The position numbers and the translations under genes were made by a program. The notes beneath the pieces are model-generated. The model worked only from the letters and a program-made list of their open reading frames with translations, was not told the origin of the DNA and made no database searches. 64,000 nt of DNA. It comes from an uncultured Acidimicrobiales bacterium. Lineage in GTDB: Bacteria > Actinomycetota > Acidimicrobiia > Acidimicrobiales > SHLQ01. The DNA is taken from assembly GCA_937922235.1 (NCBI GenBank), contig CAKZVC010000073.1:6355-70354 (forward strand). The letters are read 5' to 3'. Shown here piece after piece: positions 22,859 through 49,579 of this stretch. Each line of letters starts with the position of its first letter. Position 1 is the first letter of the stretch.

Positions 22859-22880
22859 CGCCCGGGGTTAGGTTGTGCCG

Positions 22881-23630: not shown

Positions 23631-23633
23631 CAC

Positions 23634-24824: not shown

Positions 24825-24827
24825 TCG

Positions 24828-26408
24828 TTAGACGTCGCCGACGCTGCGGGCGATCGCATCGTCGAGTTCGGCTCTTGTACGAGGGTGATCACCGTCGACC
24901 GACGACGGAGCGAAGACCACGTGTGGGGCGAGCGCCTCGACCAAGCCGGCGTGTGATCCGACGGGCGACACGACGAGTGCCGACGCCCGAAGCGAATCAA
25001 CGCTCAACAATGTGCTTCGATACCCGCCGAGCTGAGAGCGCATAGTCGGGTCGCACATGAGCGTTGGTTCGTGGCCAGCTTCTGCCAGGGCATGCAGCGA
25101 TGTCGAGATCCACGCATCGAGTGCCGGATAGCCAGACAGCGATTCGGGCACGTAGACGATGGAACCGCGGCGAGCTGGTTGCTGCGGCCAGACGAGAGCG
25201 ACCCCTTTTTCGGTGAGGTCTGTCCGGGTTGCAAACCGTTGCTCAGTCGACGCCAGATCGATGATTGCCGTTCCGGGGAAGTCATCGAGCCGGAACGCCT
25301 GCACTCCTGCAAGTGCAAGCGGCCACGTCACGGTCCAGTCGAGCGGATCGACCGCAGCGATCGCGGCGGTCGACATCTCACGCGTGATGGCGAGGGCATC
25401 GAGACAGTCGCGAACGCTATGAACGAGAACGAGCGACGTCGGGGCATCGAAGGCCTGGTTCGTCCAGAACGTCGGCGACCGCTCCAGAGCGCCCGAATCG
25501 GGGTTCGTCATGAAGTCGTCGAGCCCCGCCAGCTGGTCCTGCGACTCGAGCTGTTCGGATGCATGCACGGCGTTCGCACCTGCTGCACCGCCAAAGCTCC
25601 CCAAGACCGACGGCACGTTCCACGACATCCGTCCGAACGAGTATGGCGTTCGCCCCTCTAACCATGCCTCCATCGCGCCACCGTCGGCCAACGGAACGTC
25701 GGCGTCCGTCATCCACCGATTGATAATGTCGACGTGCTCGGCCATGACCACCACGCCGTCGCCACGAAGCATCGAGTTCGGCCGCTGTCGATAGGTGGCC
25801 ACCACATGGTGCACCGGCACAAAGATGCCTCCAGCAGCGATGATCTTTGCCCACATCGCAAAGTCCTCGAGCATGGGCAATCCCTCGGGGAACCCGCCCG
25901 CTGCAATCACCGCATCCCGTCGCACGATCGGCGCAGAACAAATGAACGCGTTCTCACCGGTGTAGCTCTCGGCGTGCACAAGGGGCATCGCGGTTCGAGC
26001 AGCACGGACCTTTGGATAATCGACGAACTCCGACACGTGCTGCCAGTCGCCGTACACCCCAACCACATGCTCGCCATGTTCAGCGACCGCTGCTGGAAGC
26101 GCTTCGATGCGCGAGCTCAGCGACCGGTCGAGAAGGTAGTCATCGGAGTCGAGGAAGCAGAGGTACTCGCCGGTCGCCGCGGACACCCCGATGTTGCGAG
26201 CCGCGCCGAGGCCACCGTTGTGTTCGCATTCGATTACTTTCACCTGATCGTCGTCAAACGACAGAGCCACTCCAAGGGACGCATCACGTGATCGGTCCTC
26301 GACCACGATGACCTCGATGTCGGTGTGGTCTTGTTCGAGGCAGCTCTCGATTGCACGCCCGAGGAACTGGGGCTGCCGGTAGCTGGGAATGATGATGCTG
26401 ATCTTCAT
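24828..26408 (-). CDS. Glycosyltransferase family 2 with large C-terminal domain
   Basis: MKISIIIPSYRQPQFLGRAIESCLEQ..., VVEDRSRD, LGAARNIGV, CFLDSDDYLL. Confidence 0.8.
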   Translation of the reverse strand: MKISIIIPSYRQPQFLGRAIESCLEQDHTDIEVIVVEDRSRDASLGVALSFDDDQVKVIECEHNGGLGAARNIGVSAATGEYLCFLDSDDYLLDRSLSSRIEALPAAVAEHGEHVVGVYGDWQHVSEFVDYPKVRAARTAMPLVHAESYTGENAFICSAPIVRRDAVIAAGGFPEGLPMLEDFAMWAKIIAAGGIFVPVHHVVATYRQRPNSMLRGDGVVVMAEHVDIINRWMTDADVPLADGGAMEAWLEGRTPYSFGRMSWNVPSVLGSFGGAAGANAVHASEQLESQDQLAGLDDFMTNPDSGALERSPTFWTNQAFDAPTSLVLVHSVRDCLDALAITREMSTAAIAAVDPLDWTVTWPLALAGVQAFRLDDFPGTAIIDLASTEQRFATRTDLTEKGVALVWPQQPARRGSIVYVPESLSGYPALDAWISTSLHALAEAGHEPTLMCDPTMRSQLGGYRSTLLSVDSLRASALVVSPVGSHAGLVEALAPHVVFAPSSVDGDHPRTRAELDDAIARSVGDV

Positions 26409-27031
26409 TAGACGATCACCAACCGGGGGTAGCTTCTGACCCCGAGGTCATGCAGCCGACCGAGGGCGCGGGGCAATCGGTCGGTCGCACGTTCGTTGAA
26501 GTGCTCGTCTACGTATCGCTGACGATCGGCTCCCAACGTAAGCAACATTGCCGGGTCGATACAGAGTGAGAGGTCGATCGACCAGAGCAATGCCAAGTCG
26601 TCGTAGAGCTGTGCCGGGGCACCCCGATGAGACGAGACCTCCTCGAGTCCGATCTGCCGGATCAGAAATCGAGCCAGGACGTTCTCGTGACGAATTGTGT
26701 TTCGCCGCTCGATGAGGGCGTGGGGAAGCGAAACCATCGTGGACCCAACAGCAGAGATATCGGCACGCCCGACGGGCGCCAGAACTGCAGCGACCTCGCC
26801 ACCCAGGAGGCGATCAGCGAGCTCAACGTTGGCTATCTGTTCGCCATCGCGGTTTCTGGTAATGCTGGAATCTCCAAGAATCTGCTCGAGCGGCGACGCT
26901 ACCGAAACGAAGCAGAACCTTGGTGACTCGTCGACGTTGTTGAGGACGATCGCGCTTCGACACGCAACAACGTCACTCACCGCCTCGACCGACGTGGCGT
27001 GCTCCCATGATTGACAGATCGATTCGATCAT
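26408..27031 (-). CDS. Hypothetical protein (operon member)
   Basis: 207-aa ORF. ATGA overlap with the upstream GT4 gene and TAATG overlap with the downstream GT2 gene. No motif recognised. Confidence 0.45.
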   Translation of the reverse strand: MIESICQSWEHATSVEAVSDVVACRSAIVLNNVDESPRFCFVSVASPLEQILGDSSITRNRDGEQIANVELADRLLGGEVAAVLAPVGRADISAVGSTMVSLPHALIERRNTIRHENVLARFLIRQIGLEEVSSHRGAPAQLYDDLALLWSIDLSLCIDPAMLLTLGADRQRYVDEHFNERATDRLPRALGRLHDLGVRSYPRLVIV

Positions 27032-28323
27032 CGCTGACCCCCCGTCTGCACGTGTTGGAGAAGTTCAAGGAGTTTGGGCTGGTGCACTGAAACAGCGAAA
27101 CGCTCGAGTTGGCGGTTCCGTCGGTGCTGTCGGTCAGCCTCGGTCTCGGTGTGCACTTCGCCAAGCGCTTCGCTGATCCGGAGTCCGAGTTGTTCCGCTG
27201 GAAGGTCGAGCGCGAACAAGTCGCTCACGTCAGCAATCGTCTCCTCGGTACCCCCAACGTCAGACGCAAGACAACGAGTGCCACACAGGCCCGCCTCAAT
27301 CGGAACGGTCGGTAGATTGTCGATGCGCGACGGGTGAACGAGCAGGTCAGCTGCGCCATAAAGGGCAGGCATGAGGGATCGGTCGAGACCACTCAGGACG
27401 ATCCCATCGCCAGCAATATCAAGCTTGCCGATCGGTAAACTGTCAGGGGTGGCGAGCCGGTCTGCGACCGGTCCAGGCGCCAGTAGCGCAGCCGCCTGAC
27501 CCACTGCCACTGATCCTGATCCGCCAGCGACAAGGCGAAGCGGAGGCTCACCATCTGGACCAACACCGTGGCGCAGGGCCTGCTCAAAGGCGGCGAAGCC
27601 CTTCCGCTGCTGGGTTGGATTCCCGATGAACAGCACTATCGATCGATCGGTGGGCAGCCCCAAACGAGCTCGCGCTTCGGATCGGTCCTGCAGATCAAAC
27701 ATGGTCGTATCGACGGCGTTAGCAAGATGCGCAACCGGCAACGTTGGGAAAACTGATTTGGCCCGCTGTGCTAGCCACAAACTCGGGGCCACCAACGTCA
27801 GGTTCTTCGATCGACTCGGGACCTCAAAGAGATGGTCGTAGCGATGCTCAAGCACCGAGTCGGACCGACCTGGTTCGAACGTCCGCACGACAGGAGCCCC
27901 GAGCTCGGGCGCAAACGTGTAGTGCGCATCGGTGATGAACCACTCGTCGTGCATCGTGTGCACGACGGGAATGATTGCGCTCCAGTCAGCCAGGTCGAGC
28001 TGGCTGAGGACGCGGCCACAATTGTGCACGTACAACACGTCGGGAGCGAACGCCTCGACCTCGGCGGCAAGCCAGCGCCTGAAGGCAGCAACGAACGCCA
28101 CGTGATCGGTAGCGGTGACGCTTCCGTCGAGCGCCCGTTCGTCGTTTGTGAACGCCATTGCGGCGTGGTGCTTTCGACCGAGCTGTTCCGCTAGAGCCGA
28201 TTGCATTGCCCCAGCAAACACCCCAGCGTCGTGACCGGCGTTGGTCAACATGTCGGCAGCAAGCAGCGACATGATGCCAGCGCCGTTTGGACGCACCAGG
28301 TCGGAAAGAACAGCAACGCGCAT
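27028..28323 (-). CDS. Glycosyltransferase family 4 (GT-B)
   Basis: 431 aa. MRVAVLSD...NGAG N-domain and a C-domain with LLVHPSRIDNLPTVPIEAGLCGTRCLASDVGG (E(x7)E-like region). Confidence 0.8.
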   Translation of the reverse strand: MRVAVLSDLVRPNGAGIMSLLAADMLTNAGHDAGVFAGAMQSALAEQLGRKHHAAMAFTNDERALDGSVTATDHVAFVAAFRRWLAAEVEAFAPDVLYVHNCGRVLSQLDLADWSAIIPVVHTMHDEWFITDAHYTFAPELGAPVVRTFEPGRSDSVLEHRYDHLFEVPSRSKNLTLVAPSLWLAQRAKSVFPTLPVAHLANAVDTTMFDLQDRSEARARLGLPTDRSIVLFIGNPTQQRKGFAAFEQALRHGVGPDGEPPLRLVAGGSGSVAVGQAAALLAPGPVADRLATPDSLPIGKLDIAGDGIVLSGLDRSLMPALYGAADLLVHPSRIDNLPTVPIEAGLCGTRCLASDVGGTEETIADVSDLFALDLPAEQLGLRISEALGEVHTETEADRQHRRNRQLERFAVSVHQPKLLELLQHVQTGGQR

Positions 28324-28325
28324 TG

Positions 28326-29021
28326 CTAGGTCACCCGGTTACGAATCGAGCCCGCGACTCGCTTTGCGCCGCGAACGGCTCGACGAACTTGGTCGGCTGC
28401 TTCGGGAGCCCGGGCCGTATCGATCAACACGGGGATCGTTCGTCGACGGCCTCTTGCGCCGGTGACCTCGGTCGTTGGACCGCCAATGGTGACTAACGCC
28501 CGCGACAGGCTCGAGGGTTGAAGCTCGTGTGAGAGCGAATCCATTGTCTCTGCGTTCCTCGCCGAGATCACGAGGCGATGGGAGTCGTCGACCTTTGAGA
28601 TCTCGGCAACGACAACGATCGCTAACGAGGCACCGATCGGGCCGATGACTGGTTCGCGTTGCCCATCGTCGACAACCAGCTTTCCCTGTGGCGTTTCGCG
28701 AATGTCGACCCGCTGGCCGGCTTCGGCGAGATGCAGGGAGAACAGGGTCGAGTCGACCGATGATGGACGGGGGTCGCGTAGCACTTGGACTTGCAGTCGG
28801 GAGAGCGTTGCGAGGTTGAACCGGGTTGACGCTATCGGGATCGAGACGGGCGGACCGTTTTCGTACGGCCGGACGTTGCCCTGCTCAAGGTCAACCATTT
28901 GAGGGGTTGGCGTGTCGAGGATGACCAGTCGTTGGAGGCTTGGGGCGGGACGAAGCGACTCGACGGGGGCGAGCGGCCCAGCGGCCACTAGCGGGTCGAT
29001 TGCGCTCGGGCCGTCGATCAC
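28326..29021 (-). CDS. Hypothetical protein (operon member)
   Basis: ORF 28326..29054. GTG at 29021 forms a GTGA overlap with the sulfotransferase stop, so it is preferred as the start. No motif recognised. Confidence 0.45.
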   Translation of the reverse strand: MIDGPSAIDPLVAAGPLAPVESLRPAPSLQRLVILDTPTPQMVDLEQGNVRPYENGPPVSIPIASTRFNLATLSRLQVQVLRDPRPSSVDSTLFSLHLAEAGQRVDIRETPQGKLVVDDGQREPVIGPIGASLAIVVVAEISKVDDSHRLVISARNAETMDSLSHELQPSSLSRALVTIGGPTTEVTGARGRRRTIPVLIDTARAPEAADQVRRAVRGAKRVAGSIRNRVT

Positions 29022-29881
29022 GACAGACCGAGTGCGCCTGACAGGCGGGCGCACTCATCCCAGTCGACGTCGAGGCTTGCCAACAGCGCTTCGAGTTGGT
29101 CGCGGCCCGCACGCGCAGCTGAGTTGTGCCGATACGAACTTCCGGCGACGCTGCTGAGCACGGTATCGATCGCCTCTTGGCGCGCTGCTGGTTCGCCGAG
29201 CTCAGAGAAGAGTCGCTGTACCCGGTCAGATTCGGGCGTCAGGTCGCTGTACGCCACAATCGAGGAGCGGTCGGCGAACTCCGATTGCAGTGCAAGAAGG
29301 CCCTGGTAGCGAGCAATCCAACCGTTGCTGATGGTGGTGAGGCGCTTGTTTGCTTTCTCGCGGCCCTCGTCGGTAGAGAGATCGAAGTCGGTATTTCCAA
29401 AGGCGAAGAAGCGAGACATTGCGTAACCGGGCACATCACGGCCAAGCACGATGAGATGCGCCTGTGGGAAGAGCTGCATCAGGGCCCGGAGCTCGGTGTC
29501 GGTGTAACGGATTTCCTTGAAGCCCCACCGGATCGATTGGTTCAGCCCCTCGGTGAACAACCCGATCATCATCGACTGGATTGCGGAGGTGAGATGGTCG
29601 GGGCGAAAGGGTGAGACCCACGGCTTGAAGGTTTCCTTGTCCGATAGCTCGCCGATCACCATCTGACGATGCTCGTAGCCGTTGATGAGGTTCTGCGCTG
29701 CGTCCGGATGGTTCGCTGCGGTGTAACTCGCAAGGATTCCCGACAGGAACCCGGCGTGCTCACCCCAGATGGTGAGGTCCGGATGTACGTTCAGTACCCG
29801 CTGCAACAGTGTCGACCCCGATCGGCCCATGCTGGCGACGAAGATTGGGCGTTGCCACCGTTCAGAAACTTCAAGACTCAT
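29018..29881 (-). CDS. Sulfotransferase-family protein
   Basis: 287 aa. PAPS 5'-phosphosulfate-binding loop FVASMGRSGSTLLQRVL and a later VLGRDVPGYAMS (3'-phosphate-binding-like R...S). Confidence 0.8.
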   Translation of the reverse strand: MSLEVSERWQRPIFVASMGRSGSTLLQRVLNVHPDLTIWGEHAGFLSGILASYTAANHPDAAQNLINGYEHRQMVIGELSDKETFKPWVSPFRPDHLTSAIQSMMIGLFTEGLNQSIRWGFKEIRYTDTELRALMQLFPQAHLIVLGRDVPGYAMSRFFAFGNTDFDLSTDEGREKANKRLTTISNGWIARYQGLLALQSEFADRSSIVAYSDLTPESDRVQRLFSELGEPAARQEAIDTVLSSVAGSSYRHNSAARAGRDQLEALLASLDVDWDECARLSGALGLS

Positions 29882-29996
29882 GCGCCCGTCACACTAGCGC
29901 TTGCCTTTCCTACAGAGAGGTAGGATGAGGGTGCTCGTGTTTCGTGATTCTTGCCACTAGGCGTTCTTCATGGGGCCGACCTCACAGGAGGCCACC

Positions 29997-31463
29997 GTGT
30001 CATCTTCTTCTGCCAGCAACGGCAAAAAAACCTTCGCTTCTCTTGGCGTGCCCGACGATGTCGTCGAAGCGCTCGATGGGAACGGCATCACCGCGCCGTT
30101 CGATATTCAGGCAGCGACCATTCCCGACGCACTAGCGGGTCGGGACGTTTTGGGCCGTGCCCCCACGGGATCTGGCAAGACGCTCGCCTTCGGCATTCCG
30201 ATGGTTGTCCGGCTCAAGCGGGCGAAGCCGCACAAGCCAACCGGGCTGATCCTCTCCCCCACTCGCGAGCTCGCTGAGCAAATTCGCCGCGAGCTCGAAC
30301 CGCTCGCTGCGGTCCGGGGCCGAAGCGTGATGGCTGTCTACGGCGGCGTCGGATTCGGCAACCAGTTGAAGGGCCTGCGCAACGGCGTGGACATGTTGGT
30401 TGCGTGTCCGGGACGTTTGCTCGATCTGATCGAACAGGGCGAGGTGAAGCTGAGCGATGTCAGCTACGCCGTCATCGACGAAGCCGATCGCATGGCCGAC
30501 ATGGGGTTCCTTCCGGTCGTTAAGCGCATCCTCGACAAGACGAACACCGACCGTCAGACCGTGTTGTTCTCTGCGACCCTTGGCAAAGAGGTGAAGGTTC
30601 TCACCGACGCCTACCAGCACAAGCCAGTGACTCATGAGGTTGGTGAACGCGAACCCGACATGACCCGCATGACACATCGGTTCGTGCGTATCGAGCGTGC
30701 CGAGAAGGTTGCGCTTGCGGCGCACGAGATTCGGTCCCATGGCCAAACGATCGTCTTCTGTCGCACCCGTCATGGTTCTGATCGCGTTGCGAAGCAGCTA
30801 AAGCGCTATGGCGTGAAGACCGGCGTCATTCACGGCCGTCGCACGCAGAGCCAGCGAGACTCGGCACTCAAGGCCTTTGTCGAGGGCAAGACCCAGGCAC
30901 TTGTCGCAACCGATGTGGCCGCTCGCGGCATCCACGTTGACGGTGTCGATTGCGTTGTCCACTACGACCCACCTGAAGATGACAAGGCGTACACCCATCG
31001 TTCGGGTCGTACTGCTCGCGCTGGTGCATCCGGTGTGGTCGTCTCGCTCATTACGAACGAGGACCTGAAGGACACCAAGAAGCTGCAGCGTCAGATCAAG
31101 GTGAAGTGCGAGTTCGAAGATCCGACTCCCGCTGACAAGCTCGATCACGGCGACCCGATCATCCAGCCAAAGCAGGGCGGCGGCGGTGGCAAGAATGGTC
31201 AGCGCAGTGGTGGCCGCGGAAAGGGCCGGGGTAAGGGCAGCGGCCCGAAGAAGTCGACCGGCCGCAAGCGGTCAAGTCCGGGCGGCGGAGACGCCCGAAA
31301 GAACAGCGGCGGAGACGCCCGAAAGGGCGGAGGCGGCCGAAAGAAGTCCGGTGGCCAAAGCAGTGGAAAGTCTGGCGGAGGCCAGGGAGGCGGCCGCAGT
31401 CGCTCAGGCGGCGGCCGTTCCGGCGGCGGCAAGCAAGGCGGAGGCCAACGCCGCTCCCGCTAA
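29997..31463 (+). CDS. DEAD-box ATP-dependent RNA helicase with Gly/Arg/Lys-rich tail
   Basis: Q-motif FDIQ, APTGSGKTLAF, VIDEADRM, SAT, HRSGRTARAG. GTG at 29997 is preceded by AGGAGG (29986-29991). ATG at 29970 is an alternative start. Confidence 0.92.
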   Translation: MSSSSASNGKKTFASLGVPDDVVEALDGNGITAPFDIQAATIPDALAGRDVLGRAPTGSGKTLAFGIPMVVRLKRAKPHKPTGLILSPTRELAEQIRRELEPLAAVRGRSVMAVYGGVGFGNQLKGLRNGVDMLVACPGRLLDLIEQGEVKLSDVSYAVIDEADRMADMGFLPVVKRILDKTNTDRQTVLFSATLGKEVKVLTDAYQHKPVTHEVGEREPDMTRMTHRFVRIERAEKVALAAHEIRSHGQTIVFCRTRHGSDRVAKQLKRYGVKTGVIHGRRTQSQRDSALKAFVEGKTQALVATDVAARGIHVDGVDCVVHYDPPEDDKAYTHRSGRTARAGASGVVVSLITNEDLKDTKKLQRQIKVKCEFEDPTPADKLDHGDPIIQPKQGGGGGKNGQRSGGRGKGRGKGSGPKKSTGRKRSSPGGGDARKNSGGDARKGGGGRKKSGGQSSGKSGGGQGGGRSRSGGGRSGGGKQGGGQRRSR

Positions 31464-31477
31464 CCCGCCCAAAACGC

Positions 31478-39547: not shown

Positions 39548-41808
39548 GCATACACCACATAGATCGTCGCAGCTGGGATTGCCTTTGCGATTACTTCCAT
39601 ACAACTTAGCCCTCTCGCATGCGAGAGTTCTTGGGTCACAAGACGCGGGCGGCCAGCTGCCCGCTTCTTCGTAAACGTCCACCCGGGGAAGAGCTCATGA
39701 AGCTCTGGAAGGAGTTCGTCACGCTTCCATCCCACATCAATCGAGAGACGAACCATGTCGAGCTTTTGACCGAACGTTGTGGGTTCGGTCGGCGCAAACT
39801 CGTAGACGCGCACGTCGGTTGGACGGTCTGGCGACATCTTCCATGTCCGGGACAGTCCCCGACGAGCAAGGGAGCGCTGCACAACGAGACGGTGGTTAGC
39901 TCGCTGCAAGCCGTGCCTCGCACGCGAGGTACTGGTGCTGTGCCGTCGATATTCGTATAGCTGCTCCGGGATGTGAACGATCTCGGTTACTTCCGACAAC
40001 TTGAGAAACATGTCGAAATCGACGGCGTTTGCGATGTCGGAAGCAAAGCCATCAGTTCGATACCAATCTCGGGCCCGGAACATCCGGAAGTGATGCACGA
40101 TCATTCCGTACATCAGGTGCTGTCGGCTGAAGTATGGAAACTCATACGAGTCGCCCAGCGAGTCGCCGTTCTCGTCGATGAGTTCACTCGAGCTGTACAC
40201 CACCCCAATCCGGGGGTCTGAACGTAGAACGCCAAGAAGCCGCTCGACAGCGTTTGCTTTTAGAAGATCGTCTGAATCGAGTTGGCCGATGAACGGGGCT
40301 CGACACATGCGAACCGCAGCCTCCGACGCTGGTCCGATGCCCTGATTCGTCTGAGAGACGAACCGAACCCGAGGTTCGTTCGCGAAGTGCTCCTCGAGTA
40401 CCGACGCGGTGTTATCGGTCGAACCGTCGTCAACAATGCACACTTCAAGGTCGGGGAAGGTTTGGTTCAGCGCACTGTTCACAGCGCTCACGATGGTCGA
40501 CTCGGCGTTGTATGCCGGAATGTAGATCGACACCATCGGCACGGCGTGCAGTTCGGTGCTTTTCGGTTTGCGATATCGCGCCGGAACCCGGTCGATGAGC
40601 AACGGATGCGTTTCCTTCTGTCCTGCCTCTCGGTCGGTTTCGTTGCGACCGCCGGGTGGTTCCTGGTGAAGTCCACACGCGTCAACGATCGGAACGATGT
40701 GAGCGCCGGTGTTCCAAGCCCGATATCCCCATTCGAGGTCCTCTCCGCCCCAAGCAAGAAACTCCTCGTCGAACCCACCCGCCTTTTCGAATGTCTTCTT
40801 CGTAAAGCCAAGGTTGCCGCCAGCAACGACCCGGAACGGGTGTCGGTCATGTCGGAGGCTTGCGGTCTCGTGATAGATGGCGAGGCGCCAGTCGACGCTT
40901 GGACCAACCTCACCCTCGATCGTCAGCAGGGAGTTGTCGGGCCGAATGTCATGCAGCCCAAGCATCGATTCAATACTCTCGAGAACGCTCTCGGGGTCGA
41001 CATCGTTGGCGTCGACATACCGGCGATTGCCGACGTACACGGCGTCAGCGTGTGCTGCGAGATGCCGGGCGTGCAGTTCGACCAGACGAGGAGTCGGAGC
41101 CATGTCGCAATCGAGCGTGATGACCCTGTCGTGGGTAGCGGCTGCGATGGCAAGATTGCGGATTCGCGCAACCCGAAATCCTTCGTCGGCCTGGCTCACA
41201 CACTGGACGTTGTCGAAGTACTGACGAAACTCTGAAACCAACGTTTCAGGCTCGTCATGGCTGCCATCATCGGCAATGACTACTTCAATGAGATCGGTCG
41301 GGTAGGTCTGATGCACGAGGCAAGCAAGCGTTCGACGCAGCATTGTCTTGCGGTTGTAGACCGGGATGACCACCGATATCGGGTCATTGGGCATCGGCGC
41401 ATCGCGTGCCTTGCGGATAAGACTTCGGTAGTCGTTGCCAAGGGACGCCGACCTCGCGATATCAAGATCTGGGTCCATGCGCTGAGGCCATGGAGGTTCT
41501 GAGAGCGCCTGTGGTTCATCTGGAAATACCGACGGGGCAAGCCGAGCCTCGGTGACTCCAAAACCGTCGTCCTGAAGCAGCACTGGTGTTGTGCACGCAG
41601 CGGAAAGTGCAAGCGCGATCGCATGGCCATTCTCGGTCTGCGGTTCGGTGATTATGACATCATCAAATCGAATGAGCTCAGTGCCATTTCGAAAGGCGGA
41701 GTCGGGAGTCAGTGAGAGGTCCGCTCCATCGATCGTGAAGACGCCAGCCTCTTCGACGCCATAGTTGCTCCAGCAGAAACCTCGGCTGCCAACGAAGGAG
41801 TCAGACAC
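39544..41808 (-). CDS. Dual-domain GT2 glycosyltransferase (two GT-A modules; polymerase-like)
   Basis: 754 aa. Module 1: ISVVIPVYNRKTMLRRTLACLVHQTYP..., VIADDGSHD, TLDCDM. Module 2: VSIYIPAYNAESTIVSAVNSALNQTFP..., CIVDDGSTDNT, QLDSDDLL. Confidence 0.8.
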   Translation of the reverse strand: MSDSFVGSRGFCWSNYGVEEAGVFTIDGADLSLTPDSAFRNGTELIRFDDVIITEPQTENGHAIALALSAACTTPVLLQDDGFGVTEARLAPSVFPDEPQALSEPPWPQRMDPDLDIARSASLGNDYRSLIRKARDAPMPNDPISVVIPVYNRKTMLRRTLACLVHQTYPTDLIEVVIADDGSHDEPETLVSEFRQYFDNVQCVSQADEGFRVARIRNLAIAAATHDRVITLDCDMAPTPRLVELHARHLAAHADAVYVGNRRYVDANDVDPESVLESIESMLGLHDIRPDNSLLTIEGEVGPSVDWRLAIYHETASLRHDRHPFRVVAGGNLGFTKKTFEKAGGFDEEFLAWGGEDLEWGYRAWNTGAHIVPIVDACGLHQEPPGGRNETDREAGQKETHPLLIDRVPARYRKPKSTELHAVPMVSIYIPAYNAESTIVSAVNSALNQTFPDLEVCIVDDGSTDNTASVLEEHFANEPRVRFVSQTNQGIGPASEAAVRMCRAPFIGQLDSDDLLKANAVERLLGVLRSDPRIGVVYSSSELIDENGDSLGDSYEFPYFSRQHLMYGMIVHHFRMFRARDWYRTDGFASDIANAVDFDMFLKLSEVTEIVHIPEQLYEYRRHSTSTSRARHGLQRANHRLVVQRSLARRGLSRTWKMSPDRPTDVRVYEFAPTEPTTFGQKLDMVRLSIDVGWKRDELLPELHELFPGWTFTKKRAAGRPRLVTQELSHARGLSCMEVIAKAIPAATIYVVYA

Positions 41809-41888
41809 GCCATAACCCTAGACGACCTCTTTCCGGTCGTTCGGCCATTCTGGGAGCAGCTTCTGCAATCATGATCAGGCTCGGAGAC

Positions 41889-43532
41889 TTATCCGCCAGC
41901 GGTGTCGCCGACGAGCTCGCTGTCGCTTGTTGACACCTCAAAAAGAGCGACTCTCCGGCCAGCAGGCGAGCTGAGGATGAGCGAATTGTCCGGCTCCGCA
42001 CTGCTCCAAACGTCGTCCATCCGGGCCTGGCCGCTTGCGCCTTCCAGTATCAGGAAGCCAAGCGTTGCTCCGTCCCCGACGCCTCCACGGTTGGCCTGGG
42101 TCGAAATGAACTCATCCCATGGCAAGCCGTCGCCGACCGTTTCACCATCCGGCCGAAACGACCCGGCAAATCCGTAGGTGACACAATCTGAGTACCACGA
42201 CACCTGGGGCACCCGTGCGGTATACAGCCGACAGTTCGAACCGAGCATGTCGTCGGCGGCCATCGATGCCAGCCGAACTTGCTCGAATCCTGTCAGCCGT
42301 TCATGCATAGCCTCGACCCCTTGGAAGCTTCGGGCAGTAACGTACGACAAGACCAGGACACCACACAGGACTCCGGCACGAAGTAGACCCGAAAGCTCGA
42401 CCGGGTCTGCTTCTAGAACACCAGCCGGGTCGGCTTCAGCCTCTGAGTTTCGCGCCGGTAGCCACAGTGCCCAACCAAGCACGGCCGAAGCAATTGCAAA
42501 CTGCGGCGAAAGATAGTTCGTGACGAACTGTCCAACCGAGATCCCATACAGAACAACGGGAGACAACGCGATGAATGTGAACACCGCGAGCCAAAGAAAC
42601 TGGCCCCTAACGAGCAGTTTCGTAACGACGGCAACGACGAGGAGCACGAAGATCGAAGCATAGGACCACCCCCAGAATGGCCCGTTGAAGCCATAGTCAA
42701 CTGGGCCCGGGGTAAGAATCGTCTGCAGGTCGGTTAGCCACTTCGTCGAGGAATGACCAAGAGACTCAACCTGTGCATCAGTAGCGTCTAGCGGAGAGTC
42801 TTGGACCGTGAGAAAGGTTGAGCCAAGTAGGAACAACCCAATAGCACCCGTCATGACACCAGAGCCGATGTAGGGGACGAGCGAGCGAGCGTCGCGCTCA
42901 CGAAGCGCCTGTGCAATGACCGCGATCGCAATCACAACGAAGGCAGCAGCAACAAACATGCCCGACCCGAACCGAACCGTGGTCGCCATACCTATAGAGA
43001 GAGGCACCATCACTAAGCGCAATCCTGGGCCATGGACATACGAATGCAACAGGAAATACACACCGGCCACGGCAAAGAAGGCCCCAGGGTGATCGGCAAA
43101 GGCCAGCGTCGATGTCGCCAACACCCCCGGGCAGGCACCGGCGATAAGCACCGCAGTAGTTCCCGCACGCGGAGCTGCGACTAGGTCGAGGGTCTTTGCG
43201 AGTAACCACAGCAGACCAACAGAGAAGGCAACGGCAACGAGACGGGCAATAAAGTCTGAGGCACCGAACACCTCGAAGGCTGTGGCGAGGAAGCCGGGAA
43301 GGCCAGGCGCGCGAAGATCACTCCAGTAGCTGCCGGTGACCACGCCAAAATCAAAATTCGTTTCGGCCAGATCTTTCCCCCGCGCCGCATAGACGGCCTC
43401 GTCCCAGCTCAGCGGACTTCGAACCCGAAGCGGAATGACTGCGAGCACACCGAACGTAGCGAGCAATACGCCTCGGGCGATGGGCCGGTCGAGGAAACGA
43501 CCAACTAACTCGGAGATTTGCACGCCGCCCAC
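41889..43532 (-). CDS. GT-C fold glycosyltransferase (family 39/83, ArnT/PMT-like)
   Basis: 547 aa with more than 10 hydrophobic helices. First-loop motif SWDEAVYA (the DE motif of ArnT/PMT-type enzymes). C-terminal soluble domain. Confidence 0.7.
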   Translation of the reverse strand: MGGVQISELVGRFLDRPIARGVLLATFGVLAVIPLRVRSPLSWDEAVYAARGKDLAETNFDFGVVTGSYWSDLRAPGLPGFLATAFEVFGASDFIARLVAVAFSVGLLWLLAKTLDLVAAPRAGTTAVLIAGACPGVLATSTLAFADHPGAFFAVAGVYFLLHSYVHGPGLRLVMVPLSIGMATTVRFGSGMFVAAAFVVIAIAVIAQALRERDARSLVPYIGSGVMTGAIGLFLLGSTFLTVQDSPLDATDAQVESLGHSSTKWLTDLQTILTPGPVDYGFNGPFWGWSYASIFVLLVVAVVTKLLVRGQFLWLAVFTFIALSPVVLYGISVGQFVTNYLSPQFAIASAVLGWALWLPARNSEAEADPAGVLEADPVELSGLLRAGVLCGVLVLSYVTARSFQGVEAMHERLTGFEQVRLASMAADDMLGSNCRLYTARVPQVSWYSDCVTYGFAGSFRPDGETVGDGLPWDEFISTQANRGGVGDGATLGFLILEGASGQARMDDVWSSAEPDNSLILSSPAGRRVALFEVSTSDSELVGDTAGG

Positions 43533-43628
43533 CCTACTTCCGATCTTTGTGGCGCCTCAATCGACGTGGCTCGCAAAATGCCCCGACCCCCACACGTACA
43601 ACCAAGGCCGCGCAAGTTGAGCAGAGAT

Positions 43629-44786
43629 TCACACGGCAGTGACCGAATTGGCCTCCACAGCCTCGACAAGTGCGCTGACAACACGCTCCTGATCAGCAGC
43701 TTGCAGATCGTTGGACATCGGGAGGCGAAGTAGCCGGCTGCTCACATCATCGGTGACTGGGCACGGCTGAAGTCGATCAGACAACTCGATCGCCCCAGGA
43801 GCGGAATGTAGAGGTACGTAGTGAAAGGTGGGGTTGACGTCGTGGTGTCGCATCTCCGTGATGACATTGGCACGAATACCAGCGGACGGAAGAAGCACGT
43901 AGAACATGTGATCAGCTGGTGTGTCGCCTGGATGCTGATATGGAAGCCCCAGGTTGAGGTGCGAGGCGTGCGGTTCGAGAAGTTGCATGTATGTCTGATG
44001 TACGTTTCGACGCTTCGCCATAATCTCGGGAGCACTCTCCAACTGCGCGAGCAGAAACGCTGCCAGCAGGTCCGACAGGCCGAATGACGAACCGTGACCT
44101 TGCCACGTGTACTTGTCTGTCTGCCCCTCGAGGAACTGACGACGGTTCGTTCCCTTATCCAGCAAAATGTGGGCGCGACCACGATCACCCTCGTCGTTCA
44201 ACACGAGCGCACCACCCTCACCACAAATGAAGTTCTTCGTCTCGTGAAAACTGAGCGTTGACATCCGGCCAAAGCTGCCGAGCTGTTGCCCACCATGGTC
44301 TGCGAAGAGGCCATGGGCGTTGTCTTCGATGAGCGGCACCCCGTACCTATCCGCAATGGAACGCAACCGGCGAACGTCACTCGCTACACCCGCATAGTGG
44401 ACCGTGACGATGGCCTTGACCTTGTCGTCCATCGACGACTCGACGTGCTCTGGATCAAGGCCGAGGTCGGGCATACGAATGTCGCAGAAGCGGACCTTCG
44501 CCCCTTGTCGGGCGAACGCCGTCGCCGTCGAAGAAAAGGTGAACGATGGAACGATCACGACGTCGCCAGGCTCAAGGTCGATGAGCATGGCCGCCATCTC
44601 CAGCGCATCGGTGCACGAGGTCGTCAACAGCACGTCTTTTGCATTCAACTTCGAGCGAAGGAGGTCTTGCACCTGGGTTGTATACGGACCTTTTGCCGAG
44701 CTGTGACCATTTTCGACAGCCGCCCTCATGTACTCCATCTCACGACCGCTTAGACACGGACGGTTGAACGGAATCATCGCAGGCAT
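43629..44786 (-). CDS. DegT/DnrJ/EryC1/StrS aminotransferase (WecE-like sugar 4-aminotransferase), copy 1
   Basis: 385 aa. IPFNRPCLSGREMEYM, TSCTDALE, and SFHETKNFICGEGG (PLP Lys). Confidence 0.9.
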   Translation of the reverse strand: MPAMIPFNRPCLSGREMEYMRAAVENGHSSAKGPYTTQVQDLLRSKLNAKDVLLTTSCTDALEMAAMLIDLEPGDVVIVPSFTFSSTATAFARQGAKVRFCDIRMPDLGLDPEHVESSMDDKVKAIVTVHYAGVASDVRRLRSIADRYGVPLIEDNAHGLFADHGGQQLGSFGRMSTLSFHETKNFICGEGGALVLNDEGDRGRAHILLDKGTNRRQFLEGQTDKYTWQGHGSSFGLSDLLAAFLLAQLESAPEIMAKRRNVHQTYMQLLEPHASHLNLGLPYQHPGDTPADHMFYVLLPSAGIRANVITEMRHHDVNPTFHYVPLHSAPGAIELSDRLQPCPVTDDVSSRLLRLPMSNDLQAADQERVVSALVEAVEANSVTAV

Positions 44787-46207: not shown

Positions 46208-46209
46208 AC

Positions 46210-47980: not shown

Positions 47981-48374
47981 CGATTTGCTCCTTTCCGCCG
48001 AAGCCAACGAGCCGCAGACTGATGTAGATCACGATTGGCGTCACTCCGAAGTTCGCCACCTGCGCGAGCGCCGGCGGTAGCCAACGCAACATAATCGACA
48101 CCGTCGCAAGCGTGCTCACAAACCCTGCAGCATAGGCAAATGCGAACTTTGGCAGGTCGCTCCGATGGCTCTCATTGCTTTCAAAGGTCCAGCGCCGATT
48201 GCCGAAGTAGCTGACAGCAATCCCGGGCACATAGCAAATGCCTGCTGCGCTAACTGGCGACACTCCTCCCCAGAGCAGCCCGAGGTAAGCGACATACAAC
48301 ACGACCGTTGTGATTGCTCCGAGCGCACCGTAGCGGGAGAATCGAAGAGCCTCCTGTCGAAGTCGTTCGATCAT
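47970..48374 (-). CDS. GtrA-family membrane protein
   Basis: ATG at 48374 gives MIERLRQEALRFSRYGALGAITTVV... . Four helices and a FGNRRWTF motif typical of GtrA. Confidence 0.75.
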   Translation of the reverse strand: MIERLRQEALRFSRYGALGAITTVVLYVAYLGLLWGGVSPVSAAGICYVPGIAVSYFGNRRWTFESNESHRSDLPKFAFAYAAGFVSTLATVSIMLRWLPPALAQVANFGVTPIVIYISLRLVGFGGKEQIGAS

Positions 48375-48399
48375 CCCGGGCCCGCTATGTGCCGAGATG

Positions 48400-49557: not shown

Positions 49558-49579
49558 GGGCTGTATAGTACCGATCCTG

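What the first reader, a model, noticed from the sequence alone, without database searches (positions are those of the whole stretch)
24828..44786. Glycan locus combining a dual-GT-A polymerase-like enzyme with two sulfotransferase-like proteins: possible sulfated polysaccharide
The 754-aa protein at 39544..41808 has two complete GT2 modules, each with its own DxD-type motif (TLDCDM and QLDSDD). This is the arrangement of alternating-sugar polymerases such as chondroitin, hyaluronan and heparosan synthases. The same region encodes a clear sulfotransferase (29018..29881, PSB loop GRSGSTLL) and a second sulfotransferase-like domain (35450..36841, GTGRSGTV). It also encodes GT4 and GT2 enzymes and two motif-less proteins (26408..27031, 28326..29021), all locked into the 29881->24828 operon by GTGA, ATGA and TAATG overlaps. 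Sulfated glycans are uncommon in bacteria. The locus is split by the purHN genes, a helicase and the IS element.
Basis: partly seen in the sequence, partly recalled or inferred. Interest (0 to 1): 0.6.

Follow-up and report, generated by a model that had tools for sequence, protein, structure and literature searches.

The report
Chondroitin-synthase-like glycan island with tethered sulfotransferase
An uncultured marine actinobacterium (Acidimicrobiales) carries a close relative of the E. coli chondroitin polymerase next to a membrane-tethered sulfotransferase, and separately a conserved sugar-building operon with a second sulfotransferase, so it may naturally make sulfated animal-like sugar polymers, which no bacterium has yet been shown to do with a known enzyme.

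Summary
The interpretation as one locus is only partly right.

- **Polymerase.** The 754-aa protein is a collinear homolog of E. coli K4 chondroitin polymerase KfoC (PDB 2Z86, E 1e-140, 46.5% identity). The DCD, DSD and WGGED motifs are identical.
- **Sulfotransferases.** Both proteins belong to Pfam Sulfotransfer_3. ST287 scores 64 bits. The C-terminal domain of the 463-aa protein scores 32.5 bits. Its AlphaFold model (pLDDT 92.5) matches only sulfotransferases among the top Foldseek hits. Both keep the PAPS-binding motifs: the 5'-PSB loop and an R-x7-S 3'-PB motif.
- **Two units, not one split locus.**
  - A ten-gene core (19535-29881, including ST287) lies beside helicase-purH-purN. It is syntenic in at least 10 Acidimicrobiales MAG species. 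Only the IS110 element is new.
  - A hypervariable slot lies between purN and amidase/M48. In five of the relatives examined it holds KfoC-like plus an MT-like protein. In three of those five it also holds the tethered sulfotransferase.
- **Tethered enzymes.** The sulfotransferase, the MT-like protein and a GT2 each have a transmembrane anchor and a coiled-coil stalk. The sulfotransferase and MT-like anchors are homologous.
- **Missing genes.** The window has no PAPS-synthesis, UDP-GlcA dehydrogenase or exporter gene.

Sulfation of a GAG-like polymer is plausible but unproven. I rate this a new variant of a known kind.

The parts
19535..20227 (+). CMP-type (CTP_transf_3) cytidylyltransferase. 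First gene of the conserved core's divergent arm.
   Evidence: Pfam PF02348, 93.9 bits. The best NCBIfam hits, PseF and KdsB, are far below their cutoffs. It is 78-86% identical in relatives.
20179..21153 (+). D-isomer 2-hydroxyacid dehydrogenase (core).
   Evidence: Pfam 2-Hacid_dh_C, 144.6 bits. It is 73-86% identical in relatives.
21689..22858 (+). GT2 glycosyltransferase, 389 aa (core).
   Evidence: Pfam PF00535, 42 bits. It is syntenic in relatives.
22875..23630 (+). Short-chain dehydrogenase/reductase (core).
   Evidence: Pfam adh_short_C2, 178.6 bits. It is 76-90% identical in relatives.
23634..24824 (+). u396: a GT-B fold glycosyltransferase-like enzyme that Pfam does not cover (core).
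   Evidence: No Pfam, NCBIfam or PDB-sequence hit. The AlphaFold model has pLDDT 87.9. The top Foldseek PDB hits are GT-B enzymes: UrdGT2, LanGT2, GtfB, TagF (E 5.5e-10). It has 697 representative homologs, often fused behind a GT2 domain.
24828..26408 (-). GT2 with a ~290-aa C-terminal domain of unknown function. Last gene of the ST287 operon.
   Evidence: Pfam PF00535, 102 bits at residues 4-104. A TAATG junction joins it to the upstream gene. The C-terminal part resembles u396 only weakly (hhalign probability 11%).
26408..27031 (-). u207: conserved orphan protein.
   Evidence: No Pfam, NCBIfam or PDB hit. Orthologs in 11 related loci are 52-69% identical. An ATGA overlap joins it to GT4.
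27028..28323 (-). GT4 (GT-B) glycosyltransferase.
   Evidence: Pfam Glycos_transf_1, 44.1 bits, plus weaker Glyco_trans_4_4 and Glyco_transf_4 hits.
28326..29021 (-). u231: orphan protein whose start overlaps the ST287 stop codon.
   Evidence: No family hit. GTGA start/stop overlap. Orthologs in 12 related loci are 39-65% identical.
29018..29881 (-). ST287: Sulfotransfer_3 sulfotransferase. First gene of the five-gene operon.
   Evidence: PF13469, 64.3 bits. The invariant residues are the PSB loop RSGSTLL, W39-G40-E41-H42, and R148...S156 (R-x7-S). About 80 metagenomic orthologs share more than 50% identity.
29970..31463 (+). DEAD-box helicase. A housekeeping neighbour, not part of the glycan pathway.
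   Evidence: Pfam DEAD, 162 bits. It lies beside the ST287 operon in most relatives.
31801..32910 (-). IS110-family transposase, a strain-specific insertion.
   Evidence: Pfam DEDD_Tnp_IS110 and Transposase_20. It is absent between the helicase and purH in all relatives.
33226..35369 (-). purH (33226-34737) and purN (34755-35369), housekeeping genes. They mark the boundary between the conserved core and the variable slot.
   Evidence: Pfam AICARFT_IMPCHas, 369.8 bits, and Formyl_trans_N, 116.4 bits. Synteny is conserved.
35450..36841 (+). ccST463: transmembrane hairpin, then a ~180-aa heptad-rich stalk, then a compact C-terminal sulfotransferase domain (residues ~260-463).
   Evidence: The domain scores 32.5 bits on PF13469. 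In the 22-sequence family, the PSB arginine (R19), E40, R97 and S105 are invariant. AlphaFold pLDDT is 92.5. The top 34 Foldseek PDB hits are all sulfotransferases. hhalign against the ST287 family gives probability 92%. TM segments lie at 34-52 and 57-75, heptad regions at 154-256. Orthologs lie in the KfoC islands of L090 and L092.
36850..38379 (-). ccGT2_509: transmembrane anchor, coiled-coil-like stretch, then a GT2 domain.
   Evidence: PF00535, 94.9 bits at residues 161-285. TM at 17-35, heptad region at 56-113. In relatives the orthologs form the N-terminal half of ~920-aa GT2+MptE-like proteins.
38417..39547 (-). ccMT376: transmembrane anchor, coiled coil, then a methyltransferase-like domain with a degenerate SAM motif I. 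Its start overlaps the KfoC-like stop codon.
   Evidence: ATGA overlap. No Pfam hit here, but the L005 and L006 orthologs hit Methyltransf_24. Motif I reads VVVGNTSST here against ETGSGSST in L005/L006. The N-terminal anchor is homologous to that of ccST463 (30% over 94 aa, E 2e-6).
39544..41808 (-). KfoC754: bifunctional two-GT-A glycosaminoglycan-type polymerase, a homolog of K4 chondroitin polymerase.
   Evidence: PDB 2Z86/2Z87: E 1e-140, 473 bits, query residues 139-660 against chain residues 89-610. Identity is 46.5% overall, 41% in A1 and 53% in A2. DCD, DSD and WGGED are conserved. No TM segment.
41889..43532 (-). GT-C (PMT_2/ArnT-like) membrane glycosyltransferase.
   Evidence: Pfam PMT_2, 35.2 bits. 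Eight hydrophobic segments. It lies beside the KfoC-like gene in L090 and also occurs in L092.
43629..44786 (-). DegT-family sugar aminotransferase.
   Evidence: Pfam DegT_DnrJ_EryC1, 269.9 bits. It is 73% identical in L090, in the same module.
47243..50575 (.). GNAT acetyltransferase (47243-48007, -), GtrA-like protein (47970-48512, -) and a GT2 resembling polyprenyl-phosphate sugar synthases (49250-50575, +). These are the likely partners of the GT-C/DegT module.
   Evidence: Pfam hits. The same five genes are contiguous with the KfoC-like gene in L090.

Best explanation
The region holds two cell-surface glycan modules of an uncultured marine Acidimicrobiales bacterium. They flank the housekeeping genes for the DEAD helicase, purH and purN.

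**Module 1, conserved core (19535-29881).** This is a lineage-wide pathway. It has a CMP-type sugar-acid activating enzyme, two dehydrogenases, four glycosyltransferases (two GT2, one GT4, one previously unrecognised GT-B), two orphan proteins and the soluble sulfotransferase ST287. ST287 most likely O-sulfates the product of this operon in the cytoplasm, using PAPS.

**Module 2, strain-variable slot (35450-44786, with accessory genes to about 50575).**
- A soluble KfoC-type enzyme with two active sites alternately adds a hexosamine and, most likely, glucuronic acid from UDP-sugars. This would give a chondroitin- or GAG-like chain.
- Three enzymes (GT2, MT-like, sulfotransferase) are each fixed to the cytoplasmic face of the membrane by a transmembrane anchor and held off it by a coiled-coil stalk. 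They would recruit the polymerase and modify the chain.
- In this strain the MT-like head looks degenerate. A sulfotransferase head sits on a homologous anchor. Sulfation therefore appears to replace methylation, either along the chain or as a terminal cap. The arrangement recalls the coiled-coil terminator WbdD of O-antigen assembly.
- A GT-C, DegT, GNAT, GtrA and GT2 set would add an N-acetylated amino sugar outside the membrane.

**Shown:** homologies, motifs, folds, synteny and co-variation.

**Inferred:** sugar identities, the sulfate acceptor, topology, any ruler or terminator role, and the export route.
For: - **Polymerase.** KfoC754 aligns over 522 residues with K4 chondroitin polymerase, with both DXD motifs and WGGED conserved.
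- **Uronic acid supply.** UDP-glucose dehydrogenase sits in KfoC-like islands of a bacterial relative (L005) and of a Marine Group II archaeon. The archaeal island also carries Wzm/Wzt (L091).
- **ST287.** PF13469 at 64 bits, with invariant PSB and R-x7-S motifs.
- **ccST domain.** It passes the Pfam cutoff. The model is confident. All top fold hits are sulfotransferases. It is a remote homolog of ST287.
- **PAPS link.** One family member sits next to an APS kinase in a glycan cluster.
- **Core synteny.** The core is syntenic in L004 and L010-L019 whatever the slot contains.
- **Co-variation.** ccST occurs in 3 of 5 KfoC islands (window, L090, L092). It occurs in none of 11 related loci without a KfoC-like gene.
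- **Polymerase-methyltransferase link.** The KfoC-like stop overlaps the ccMT start. KfoC-methyltransferase fusion proteins exist (P0125, P0126, P0129).
- **Tethering.** TM plus heptad regions occur only in the three tethered enzymes. The ccST and ccMT anchors are homologous.
- **MT motif.** MT motif I is intact only where ccST is absent.
- **u396.** It has a GT-B fold.
Against: - The window has no APS kinase or sulfate adenylyltransferase, no UDP-glucose dehydrogenase, no UDP-GlcNAc 4-epimerase, no Wzm/Wzt or KpsMT exporter, and no initiating phosphoglycosyl transferase.
- 46% identity does not fix donor specificity.
- The closest solved structures to both sulfotransferases are protein tyrosine sulfotransferases, not carbohydrate sulfotransferases.
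- The wider compact-sulfotransferase family is rarely near a KfoC-like gene: 1 of 80 metagenome loci.
- The co-variation counts are small and phylogenetically non-independent (3/5 against 0/11; 3 against 2 for the MT motif).
- Several related islands are only partly visible within the 10-kb flanks.
- The coiled-coil calls come from a home-made heptad score, not a validated predictor.
Confidence: 0.5

Rival explanations
1. One reading: one locus makes one sulfated polysaccharide. Both sulfotransferases and all the glycosyltransferases act on the KfoC-made polymer, and the locus has merely been interrupted by purHN, a helicase and an IS.
For: All the parts lie within about 25 kb. The same neighbourhood (KfoC island, purN-purH, ST287 operon) recurs in L006 and L090.
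Against: The ST287 core is retained at 51-67% identity in at least 10 species whose slot has no KfoC-like gene. The purHN/helicase arrangement is ancestral, not an interruption. The two halves evolve as separate units.
Confidence: 0.12
2. The polymerase is KfoC-like in fold but makes a polymer that is not a glycosaminoglycan. It could be neutral or teichuronic-acid-like, with other sugar pairs. The neighbouring enzymes would decorate that polymer, and 'chondroitin-like' would be a misnomer.
For: Identity to K4CP is only 41% in the hexosaminyl-transferase half. There is no UDP-glucose dehydrogenase or 4-epimerase in the window. Family members occur with very varied partners and fusions, such as TPR, GT4 and DUF6395. 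NCBIfam gives no equivalog assignment.
Against: Both catalytic motifs and their surroundings are conserved with K4CP. Ugd co-localises with family members in L005 and L091. The glucuronyl-transferase half is 53% identical.
Confidence: 0.25
3. One or both sulfotransferases act on something other than a glycan: a protein tyrosine (as RaxST and the TPSTs do), a lipid or a small molecule. Their position near glycan genes would then be incidental.
For: The nearest solved structures by sequence and by fold are tyrosylprotein sulfotransferases. Some compact-family members lie in non-glycan contexts (L008). Only 6 of 38 longer metagenome loci showed a glycan marker in a crude screen.
Against: ST287 begins an operon joined by GTGA, ATGA and TAATG overlaps and one 2-nt gap, with GT4 and GT2 genes. 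ccST co-varies with the KfoC island and shares its anchor with the protein that follows KfoC. More distant ST287 relatives lie near Wzm/Wzt transporters. A family member lies with GT4/GT2 genes and an APS kinase. TM-scores to TPST are only about 0.6 at 15% identity.
Confidence: 0.15
4. The tethered sulfotransferase-like and MT-like proteins are non-catalytic scaffolds or chain-length regulators, and no sulfation occurs.
For: The MT-like head has a degenerate motif I. The full-length ccST falls below the Pfam cutoff. The window has no PAPS genes.
Against: In the ccST family the PSB arginine, the candidate catalytic Glu and the R-x7-S pair are invariant across 22 sequences down to 28% identity. 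That pattern indicates selection on catalysis.
Confidence: 0.08

Closest known systems
E. coli K4 chondroitin polymerase KfoC/K4CP (PDB 2Z86/2Z87) and the Pasteurella class II GAG synthases (PmCS, PmHAS)
   Same: A single soluble polypeptide with two GT-A (GT2) catalytic domains. The alignment is collinear over 522 residues at 46.5% identity. The DCD and DSD metal-binding motifs and WGGED are identical.
   Different: - The host is a Gram-positive-type actinobacterium.
- There is no kps-type (KpsMT/CS/FU) export or kfoA/kfoF precursor gene nearby.
- The protein has about 138 extra N-terminal and about 94 extra C-terminal residues.
- Its stop codon overlaps the start of a membrane-tethered MT-like gene, and it lies near a tethered sulfotransferase. 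K4 chondroitin is unsulfated (PMC2889854).
WbdD and WbbB: coiled-coil chain terminators and molecular rulers of ABC-transporter-dependent O-antigen assembly (PMC3482155, PMC11231755)
   Same: A modifying enzyme head (a methyltransferase/kinase in WbdD) sits on a long coiled coil at the cytoplasmic membrane face and works with a soluble polymerase. The gene here immediately follows the polymerase gene.
   Different: There is no sequence homology. The anchor here is an N-terminal TM hairpin, not a C-terminal amphipathic helix. The head is a sulfotransferase or a degenerate MT-like domain. No Wzm/Wzt transporter is in the window. The ruler or terminator function is inferred, not tested.
Bacterial carbohydrate sulfotransferases of Pfam Sulfotransfer_3 (NodH, and the Mesorhizobium loti KpsS named in PMC11625862)
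   Same: The same Pfam family, the R-x-G type PSB loop and dependence on PAPS-binding motifs. The genes sit in glycan-gene contexts.
   Different: Similarity is below equivalog level. ccST is a compact ~200-aa head fused to a TM and coiled-coil stalk, an architecture I did not find described in the papers read. The acceptor is unknown.
Animal chondroitin sulfotransferases (CHST11/12/3/15; Pfam Sulfotransfer_2 and Sulfotransfer_1)
   Same: If the hypothesis holds, the chemistry would be the same: PAPS-dependent O-sulfation of a GalNAc-GlcA polymer.
   Different: They are not homologous at family level. Neither protein here hits PF03567. The animal enzymes are Golgi-lumenal type II membrane proteins, whereas these would be cytoplasmic. 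Any such activity here would be convergent.
Putative sulfated GAG-like EPS cluster of Pontiella sulfatireligans F21 (PMC7356697)
   Same: A marine bacterium with a PF13469 sulfotransferase among GT2 and GT4 genes, an aminotransferase, a GtrA-like protein and a methyltransferase. Sulfated GAG-like exopolymer was detected chemically in that organism.
   Different: The paper does not mention a KfoC-type two-domain polymerase in that cluster. The phylum differs (Kiritimatiellae). No tethered coiled-coil enzymes are described.

Membership tests
KfoC/K4CP-type bifunctional glycosaminoglycan polymerase (GT2, class II synthase) | Two GT-A catalytic domains in one polypeptide, collinear with K4CP A1 and A2 | tested here: met
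   Two PF00535 stretches. A single HMMER alignment covers query residues 139-660 against K4CP 89-610, E 1e-140.
KfoC/K4CP-type bifunctional glycosaminoglycan polymerase (GT2, class II synthase) | A DXD metal-binding motif in each domain (DCD in A1, DSD in A2), plus the WGGED loop | tested here: met
   LDCDMAP, GQLDSDD and WGGED are identical in the alignment.
KfoC/K4CP-type bifunctional glycosaminoglycan polymerase (GT2, class II synthase) | Alternating transfer of GalNAc and GlcA from UDP-sugars to give chondroitin | not testable with these tools
   This needs an enzyme assay. Identity is 41% in A1 and 53% in A2, which does not fix donor specificity.
KfoC/K4CP-type bifunctional glycosaminoglycan polymerase (GT2, class II synthase) | Linked precursor genes (UDP-glucose dehydrogenase, UDP-GlcNAc 4-epimerase) and an ABC capsule exporter | tested here: not met
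   None is in the 64-kb window. Ugd is present in the islands of L005 and L091, and Wzm/Wzt in L091.
PAPS-dependent sulfotransferase, Pfam Sulfotransfer_3 (ST287) | Profile score above the gathering cutoff | tested here: met
   64.3 bits against a cutoff of 27.
PAPS-dependent sulfotransferase, Pfam Sulfotransfer_3 (ST287) | 5'-PSB loop and 3'-PB motif (Arg...Ser) conserved | tested here: met
   R20-S21-G22-S23-T24 and R148/S156 (R-x7-S) are invariant in 19 sequences.
PAPS-dependent sulfotransferase, Pfam Sulfotransfer_3 (ccST463 head) | Profile score above the gathering cutoff | tested here: met
   The domain alone scores 32.5 bits against 27. The full-length protein scores only 19.5. 19 of 22 homologs hit PF13469.
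PAPS-dependent sulfotransferase, Pfam Sulfotransfer_3 (ccST463 head) | Sulfotransferase fold with PSB and PB motifs in place | tested here: met
   AlphaFold pLDDT 92.5. The 34 best Foldseek PDB hits are all sulfotransferases. R19, E40, R97 and S105 are invariant. The PSB and PB motifs align with those of TPST.
PAPS-dependent sulfotransferases (both proteins) | The host can make PAPS (APS kinase plus ATP sulfurylase) | tested here: inconclusive
   Neither gene is in the window or in the related Acidimicrobiales flanks. The rest of the genome could not be searched.
PAPS-dependent sulfotransferases (both proteins) | Sulfate transfer to a carbohydrate acceptor | not testable with these tools
   The evidence is context only.
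WbdD-like coiled-coil chain terminator / molecular ruler | Sequence homology to the WbdD kinase and methyltransferase domains | tested here: not met
   No Pfam or NCBIfam kinase or WbdD-type hit for ccST463 or ccMT376. Only the working analogy is proposed.
WbdD-like coiled-coil chain terminator / molecular ruler | A membrane-associated coiled coil carrying a chain-modifying head, genetically coupled to the polymerase | tested here: inconclusive
   TM and heptad-rich segments were found with a simple script. An ATGA overlap joins the gene to the polymerase gene. No validated coiled-coil predictor or structure was used.
Class I SAM methyltransferase, Pfam Methyltransf_24 (ccMT376 head) | Profile hit and an intact glycine-rich motif I | tested here: not met
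   The window copy has no Pfam hit. Motif I reads VVVGNTSST against ETGSGSST in the L005/L006 orthologs, which do hit PF13578.

The most novel reading that the evidence does not exclude
This lineage naturally makes a sulfated chondroitin-like glycosaminoglycan. The sulfate would be installed by a new class of prokaryotic GAG sulfotransferase: a compact Sulfotransfer_3 head on a transmembrane and coiled-coil stalk. That head would have replaced a methyltransferase head on the same anchor. It would act either along the chain or as a chain-length-setting terminal cap, as a sulfate-based counterpart of WbdD.
Probability: 0.2. Interest if true: 0.8.

Novelty: new variant of a known kind. Interest (0 to 1): 0.55.

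Why it matters
- **An open enzyme question.** Bacterial chondroitin (the K4 capsule) is described as unsulfated (PMC2889854). A 2020 paper states that prokaryotic sulfotransferases acting on glycosaminoglycans are not known (PMC7356697).
- **Practical value.** Microbial chondroitin sulfate production currently relies on engineered animal enzymes (PMC8858990, PMC13109340). A natural operon pairing a KfoC-type polymerase with its own cytoplasmic sulfotransferase would give directly testable candidate enzymes for animal-free production of sulfated GAGs.
- **Ecology.** It would point to an abundant marine actinobacterial lineage as a possible source of sulfated GAG-like polymers.
- **Mechanism.** The shared anchor-and-stalk design with interchangeable MT-like and sulfotransferase heads is a tractable model for how glycan-modifying modules are swapped.
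- **Limit.** Even without sulfation of the KfoC product, the locus is a clear case of a conserved glycan core next to a hypervariable serotype-like slot in Acidimicrobiales.

Tried and rejected
- **Orphan proteins.** Profile searches of u396, u231 and u207 against PDB sequences gave nothing meaningful. NCBIfam gave no hit above cutoff for any core or island protein.
- **Profile comparisons.** hhalign of u207 and u231 against the sulfotransferase family was negative (probability below 1%). hhalign of the C-terminus of the 526-aa GT2 (24828-26408) against u396 was weak (probability 11%), so I make no claim from it.
- **Structure prediction.** u396 was therefore modelled with homologs from the representative search. 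u231 and u207 remain unfolded.
- **Context look-up.** The Ilumatobacter coccineus homolog (P0134) was not on record.
- **Metagenome scan.** The scan with the compact sulfotransferase family returned only relatives of 44% identity or less. It gave no further KfoC+ccST islands.
- **Literature.** Searches for KfoC or chondroitin synthase together with Acidimicrobiia, Ilumatobacter, Poseidoniales or metagenomes found nothing relevant.
- **Interpretations rejected.**
  - 'Other P-loop family' for the sulfotransferase-like proteins. Kinases appear only below 34 sulfotransferase hits and at TM-scores below 0.4.
  - 'The locus was split by purHN and the helicase'.
  - ccGT2_509 sharing the ccST anchor by homology. 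There is no detectable similarity.

Full report
**1. What is in the sequence**

- **The ST287 operon.** On the minus strand, 29881 to 24828 encodes five genes:
  - a Sulfotransfer_3 protein (ST287, 64.3 bits);
  - an orphan of 231 aa;
  - a GT4;
  - an orphan of 207 aa;
  - a 526-aa GT2.

  The junctions are GTGA, a 2-nt gap, ATGA and TAATG.
- **Intervening genes.** A DEAD helicase, an IS110 transposase, purH and purN follow.
- **Right-hand half.**
  - A 463-aa protein lies on the plus strand.
  - A 509-aa GT2, a 376-aa protein and the 754-aa double GT2 lie on the minus strand.
  - A PMT_2-type GT-C and a DegT aminotransferase follow.
  - To the left lie a CTP_transf_3 cytidylyltransferase, a 2-hydroxyacid dehydrogenase, a GT2, an SDR and a 396-aa orphan, on the opposite strand to the ST287 operon.
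  - To the right lie a GNAT, a GtrA-like protein and another GT2.

**2. The double GT2 is a true chondroitin-polymerase homolog**

- A search of PDB sequences returns E. coli K4 chondroitin polymerase (2Z86/2Z87). The E-value is 1e-140 and the score 473 bits, in one alignment of query residues 139-660 against chain residues 89-610.
- Identity is 46.5% over 518 aligned positions: 41% in the A1 half and 53% in the A2 half.
- LDCDMAP, WGGED and GQLDSDD are identical to the K4 enzyme.
- The protein has no hydrophobic segment.
- The family is large, with 860 proteins at E ≤ 1e-20.
  - Some members are named 'chondroitin synthase' by JGI.
  - The Ilumatobacter coccineus member is named 'putative glycosaminoglycan synthase'.
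  - Others come from Marine Group II archaea and cyanobacteria.

The enzyme class is therefore known. This protein is a new member.

**3. Both sulfotransferase assignments hold**

*ST287*
- It has the invariant PSB loop R20-S21-G22-S23-T24-L25-L26.
- It has invariant W39-G40-E41-H42.
- It has an invariant R148...S156 pair with the R-x7-S spacing of the 3'-PB motif. All three hold across 19 homologs.

*The 463-aa protein (ccST463)*
- **Pfam.**
  - As a whole protein it scores below the Pfam cutoff.
  - The C-terminal 214 residues alone score 32.5 bits on Sulfotransfer_3, against a cutoff of 27.
  - 19 of 22 homologs hit that family.
- **Motifs.** The family keeps an invariant PSB arginine (GLGTGRSGT), an invariant H39-E40, and invariant R97/S105, again R-x7-S.
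- **Fold.**
  - An AlphaFold model built with this alignment has pLDDT 92.5.
  - Its 34 best Foldseek matches in the PDB are all sulfotransferases: TPST1/2, schistosome SULT, SgdX2, HS 3-OST-3 and Cpz8.
  - Kinases appear only lower in the list, with TM-scores below 0.4.
- **Relation to ST287.** Profile-profile comparison of the two sulfotransferase families gives probability 92% and E 5.5e-7, with the PSB and PB motifs aligned.

**4. The region is two units, not one split locus**

*Taxonomy.* A scan of one genome per GTDB species with the ST287 family returned only Acidimicrobiia/Acidimicrobiales MAGs among the close hits (51-67% identity).

*The conserved core.*
- tblastn of all window proteins against these loci and against metagenome contigs shows one conserved block:
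  - CTP3, 2-HADH, GT2, SDR and u396 on one strand;
  - the 526-aa GT2, u207, GT4, u231 and ST287 on the other.
- The block lies directly beside the DEAD helicase (missing in some relatives), purH and purN.
- It is syntenic in L004 and L010-L019.
- The IS110 gene is found only in this strain.

*The variable slot.*
- The content between purN and the amidase_3/M48 genes differs from genome to genome:

| Locus or loci | Slot content |
|---|---|
| L015, L016, L018 | a single GT2+MptE-like gene |
| L004 | Methyltransf_21, Stealth and GT2 |
| window, L005, L006, L090, L092 | a KfoC-like island |

- ST287 is therefore kept whether or not a KfoC-like gene is present. This argues that it serves the core product and not the KfoC polymer.

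**5. Anatomy of the KfoC island**

*Shared features.*
- In all five islands the gene after the KfoC-like gene encodes a homologous protein. It has an N-terminal hydrophobic hairpin, a heptad-rich stretch and a C-terminal methyltransferase-like domain.
- In the window its start overlaps the polymerase stop codon (ATGA).
- In other metagenomic homologs a methyltransferase is fused directly to the KfoC-like protein (P0125, P0126, P0129).

*The tethered sulfotransferase.*
- It is present in three of the five islands: the window, L090 (452 aa, 44% identity over the full length) and L092 (65% over the head domain).
- It is absent from the 11 related loci without a KfoC-like gene.
- By my own calculation a Fisher exact test gives about 0.02. 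The samples are not phylogenetically independent, and some islands are only partly visible.

*The MT-like head.*
- L005 and L006, the two islands without ccST, have a canonical motif I (VETGSGSST) and hit Methyltransf_24.
- The three islands with ccST have VVVGNTSST, VILGTGVST or VLIGAGEAA, and altered downstream acidic motifs.

*The anchors.*
- The N-terminal anchors of ccST463 and ccMT376 are homologous. They share 30% identity over 94 residues, pairwise E 2e-6, with a common WY-x-(S/T)P-x-G ... VP-x-K-x-MR pattern.
- The anchor of ccGT2_509 has the same architecture but no detectable similarity.
- A simple hydropathy and heptad script finds TM plus heptad segments only in these three proteins.
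- After the second TM of ccST463 the sequence is strongly basic (KFMRHQNELRR).
  - By the positive-inside rule, which is established knowledge, this places the stalk and head in the cytoplasm.
  - PAPS and UDP-sugars are cytoplasmic. This step is inferred.

**6. Supporting context from elsewhere**

- UDP-glucose dehydrogenase lies inside the KfoC island of L005.
- It also lies beside the KfoC-like gene of a Thalassarchaeaceae MAG, together with Wzm/Wzt, a GT4 and a DegT (L091). This fits a uronic-acid polymer exported by an ABC transporter in those organisms.
- A 43%-identical member of the compact sulfotransferase family lies in a TARA contig among GT4 and GT2 genes, DegT, an epimerase, PEP mutase and an APS kinase.
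- More distant ST287 relatives are often near Wzm/Wzt genes.
- The PMT_2, DegT, GtrA, GNAT and GT2 set is contiguous with the KfoC-like gene in L090 and partly so in L092.
  - This suggests an extracytoplasmic amino-sugar decoration through a polyprenyl-phosphate sugar.
  - That reading rests on the Gtr/Arn paradigm, which is established knowledge.

**7. What is missing**

- The 64-kb window has no APS kinase, ATP sulfurylase, UDP-glucose dehydrogenase, 4-epimerase, Wzm/Wzt or KpsMT, Wzx/Wzy, or initiating phosphoglycosyl transferase.
- The two ABC exporters at 9345-12778 are of the ABC_membrane type. An FtsX/HlyD system lies next to an RTX protein. Nothing links either to glycan export.
- The rest of the genome could not be searched.

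**8. The orphans**

- **u396.**
  - It has no family hit.
  - It has 697 homologs among 50%-identity representatives, many forming the C-terminal domain behind a GT2.
  - Its model (pLDDT 87.9) is a two-Rossmann GT-B fold. It matches UrdGT2, LanGT2, GtfB, PglA and TagF at E about 1e-9.
  - It is a GT-B glycosyltransferase-like family that Pfam does not yet cover.
- **u231 and u207.** Both remain uncharacterised.

**9. Mechanism proposed, with confidence**

| Claim | Probability |
|---|---|
| KfoC754 is an alternating two-site polymerase | about 0.85 |
| Its product is a HexNAc/uronic-acid (GAG-like) chain | about 0.6 |
| Its product is specifically chondroitin-like | about 0.4 |
| ST287 is an active sulfotransferase | about 0.85 |
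| ST287 acts on the core operon's glycan | about 0.65 |
| The ccST head is an active sulfotransferase | about 0.75 |
| The ccST head acts on the KfoC polymer | about 0.45 |

- The three stalked enzymes may form a membrane platform that recruits the polymerase. The sulfate may then replace a methyl group as a chain modification or terminal cap.
- This idea is an analogy to WbdD and WbbB (PMC3482155, PMC11231755). It rests only on architecture and co-variation.

**10. Comparison with what is known, and novelty**

- The literature searches found no paper linking KfoC-type synthases to sulfotransferases in prokaryotes or to Acidimicrobiia.
- Van Vliet et al. 2020 state that prokaryotic GAG sulfotransferases are not known. 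They describe a Pontiella cluster with a PF13469 gene, and the paper does not mention a KfoC-type polymerase (PMC7356697).
- A 2024 review lists only a few bacterial carbohydrate sulfotransferases, such as NodH and M. loti KpsS (PMC11625862).
- The parts are known kinds. The new elements are the combination, the tethered architecture and the apparent head swap. I therefore class this as a new variant of a known kind, of moderate interest, resting wholly on in-silico evidence.

Noticed in passing
window 31801-32910 (-): An IS110-family transposase sits between the DEAD helicase and purH. These two genes are directly adjacent in every related locus examined, so this is a recent strain-specific insertion.
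   Followed up: partly
window 23634-24824 (+): The 396-aa orphan belongs to a widespread GT-B fold family with no Pfam or NCBIfam model. It has 697 homologs among 50%-identity cluster representatives. In many of them the domain follows a GT2 domain in proteins of 700-1200 aa.
   Followed up: yes
window 19535-23630 (+): A CTP_transf_3 cytidylyltransferase, a D-2-hydroxyacid dehydrogenase and an SDR are the most conserved genes of the core (73-90% identity across species). What they activate is unknown. The best matches, PseF and KdsB, are far below cutoff, and no (non)ulosonic acid synthase gene is nearby.
   Followed up: partly
window 36850-38379 (-); L006 13549-16332, L011 3073-5862, L013, L015, L016, L018: In most relatives the ortholog of the 509-aa tethered GT2 is the N-terminal half of a ~920-aa protein. 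The L006 ortholog carries a C-terminal MptE-like (PF01973, Maf-type) domain. That half is missing in the window and in L090.
   Followed up: partly
L091 4686-12898 (Thalassarchaeaceae MAG JBJLBM010000003.1): Marine Group II archaea carry KfoC-like double GT2 proteins (46% identity). In L091 the gene lies next to Wzm/Wzt, a GT4, a split UDP-glucose dehydrogenase, a DUF6395 protein and a DegT. This suggests GAG-like polymers are widespread in marine plankton.
   Followed up: partly
P0125, P0126, P0129: Some close KfoC-like homologs (57-60% identity) are ~1030-aa fusions with a class I methyltransferase domain. This supports a functional link between the polymerase and a methyltransferase.
   Followed up: no
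L009 7189-16874 (TARA scaffold): A stand-alone member of the compact sulfotransferase family lies in a cluster with two GT4 genes, a GT2, DegT, an epimerase, PEP mutase with phosphonopyruvate decarboxylase, and an APS kinase. The product may be both sulfated and phosphonylated.
   Followed up: no
window 36841-36850: The stop codons of the convergent ccST463 and ccGT2_509 genes are only 8 nt apart. This leaves no room for separate terminators, so their transcripts must overlap or share a bidirectional terminator.
   Followed up: no
window 47-6373 (-): An ABC ATPase, a 936-aa FtsX-type permease, a HlyD-like adaptor and a 572-aa RTX-repeat protein lie together. This looks like a MacB-type secretion system with an RTX substrate, which is unusual for an actinobacterium.
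   Followed up: no
window 38000-52000: G+C falls to 0.576-0.60 across the variable island and its right flank, against 0.60-0.63 in the conserved core and left flank. This fits, weakly, a different history for the island.
   Followed up: no
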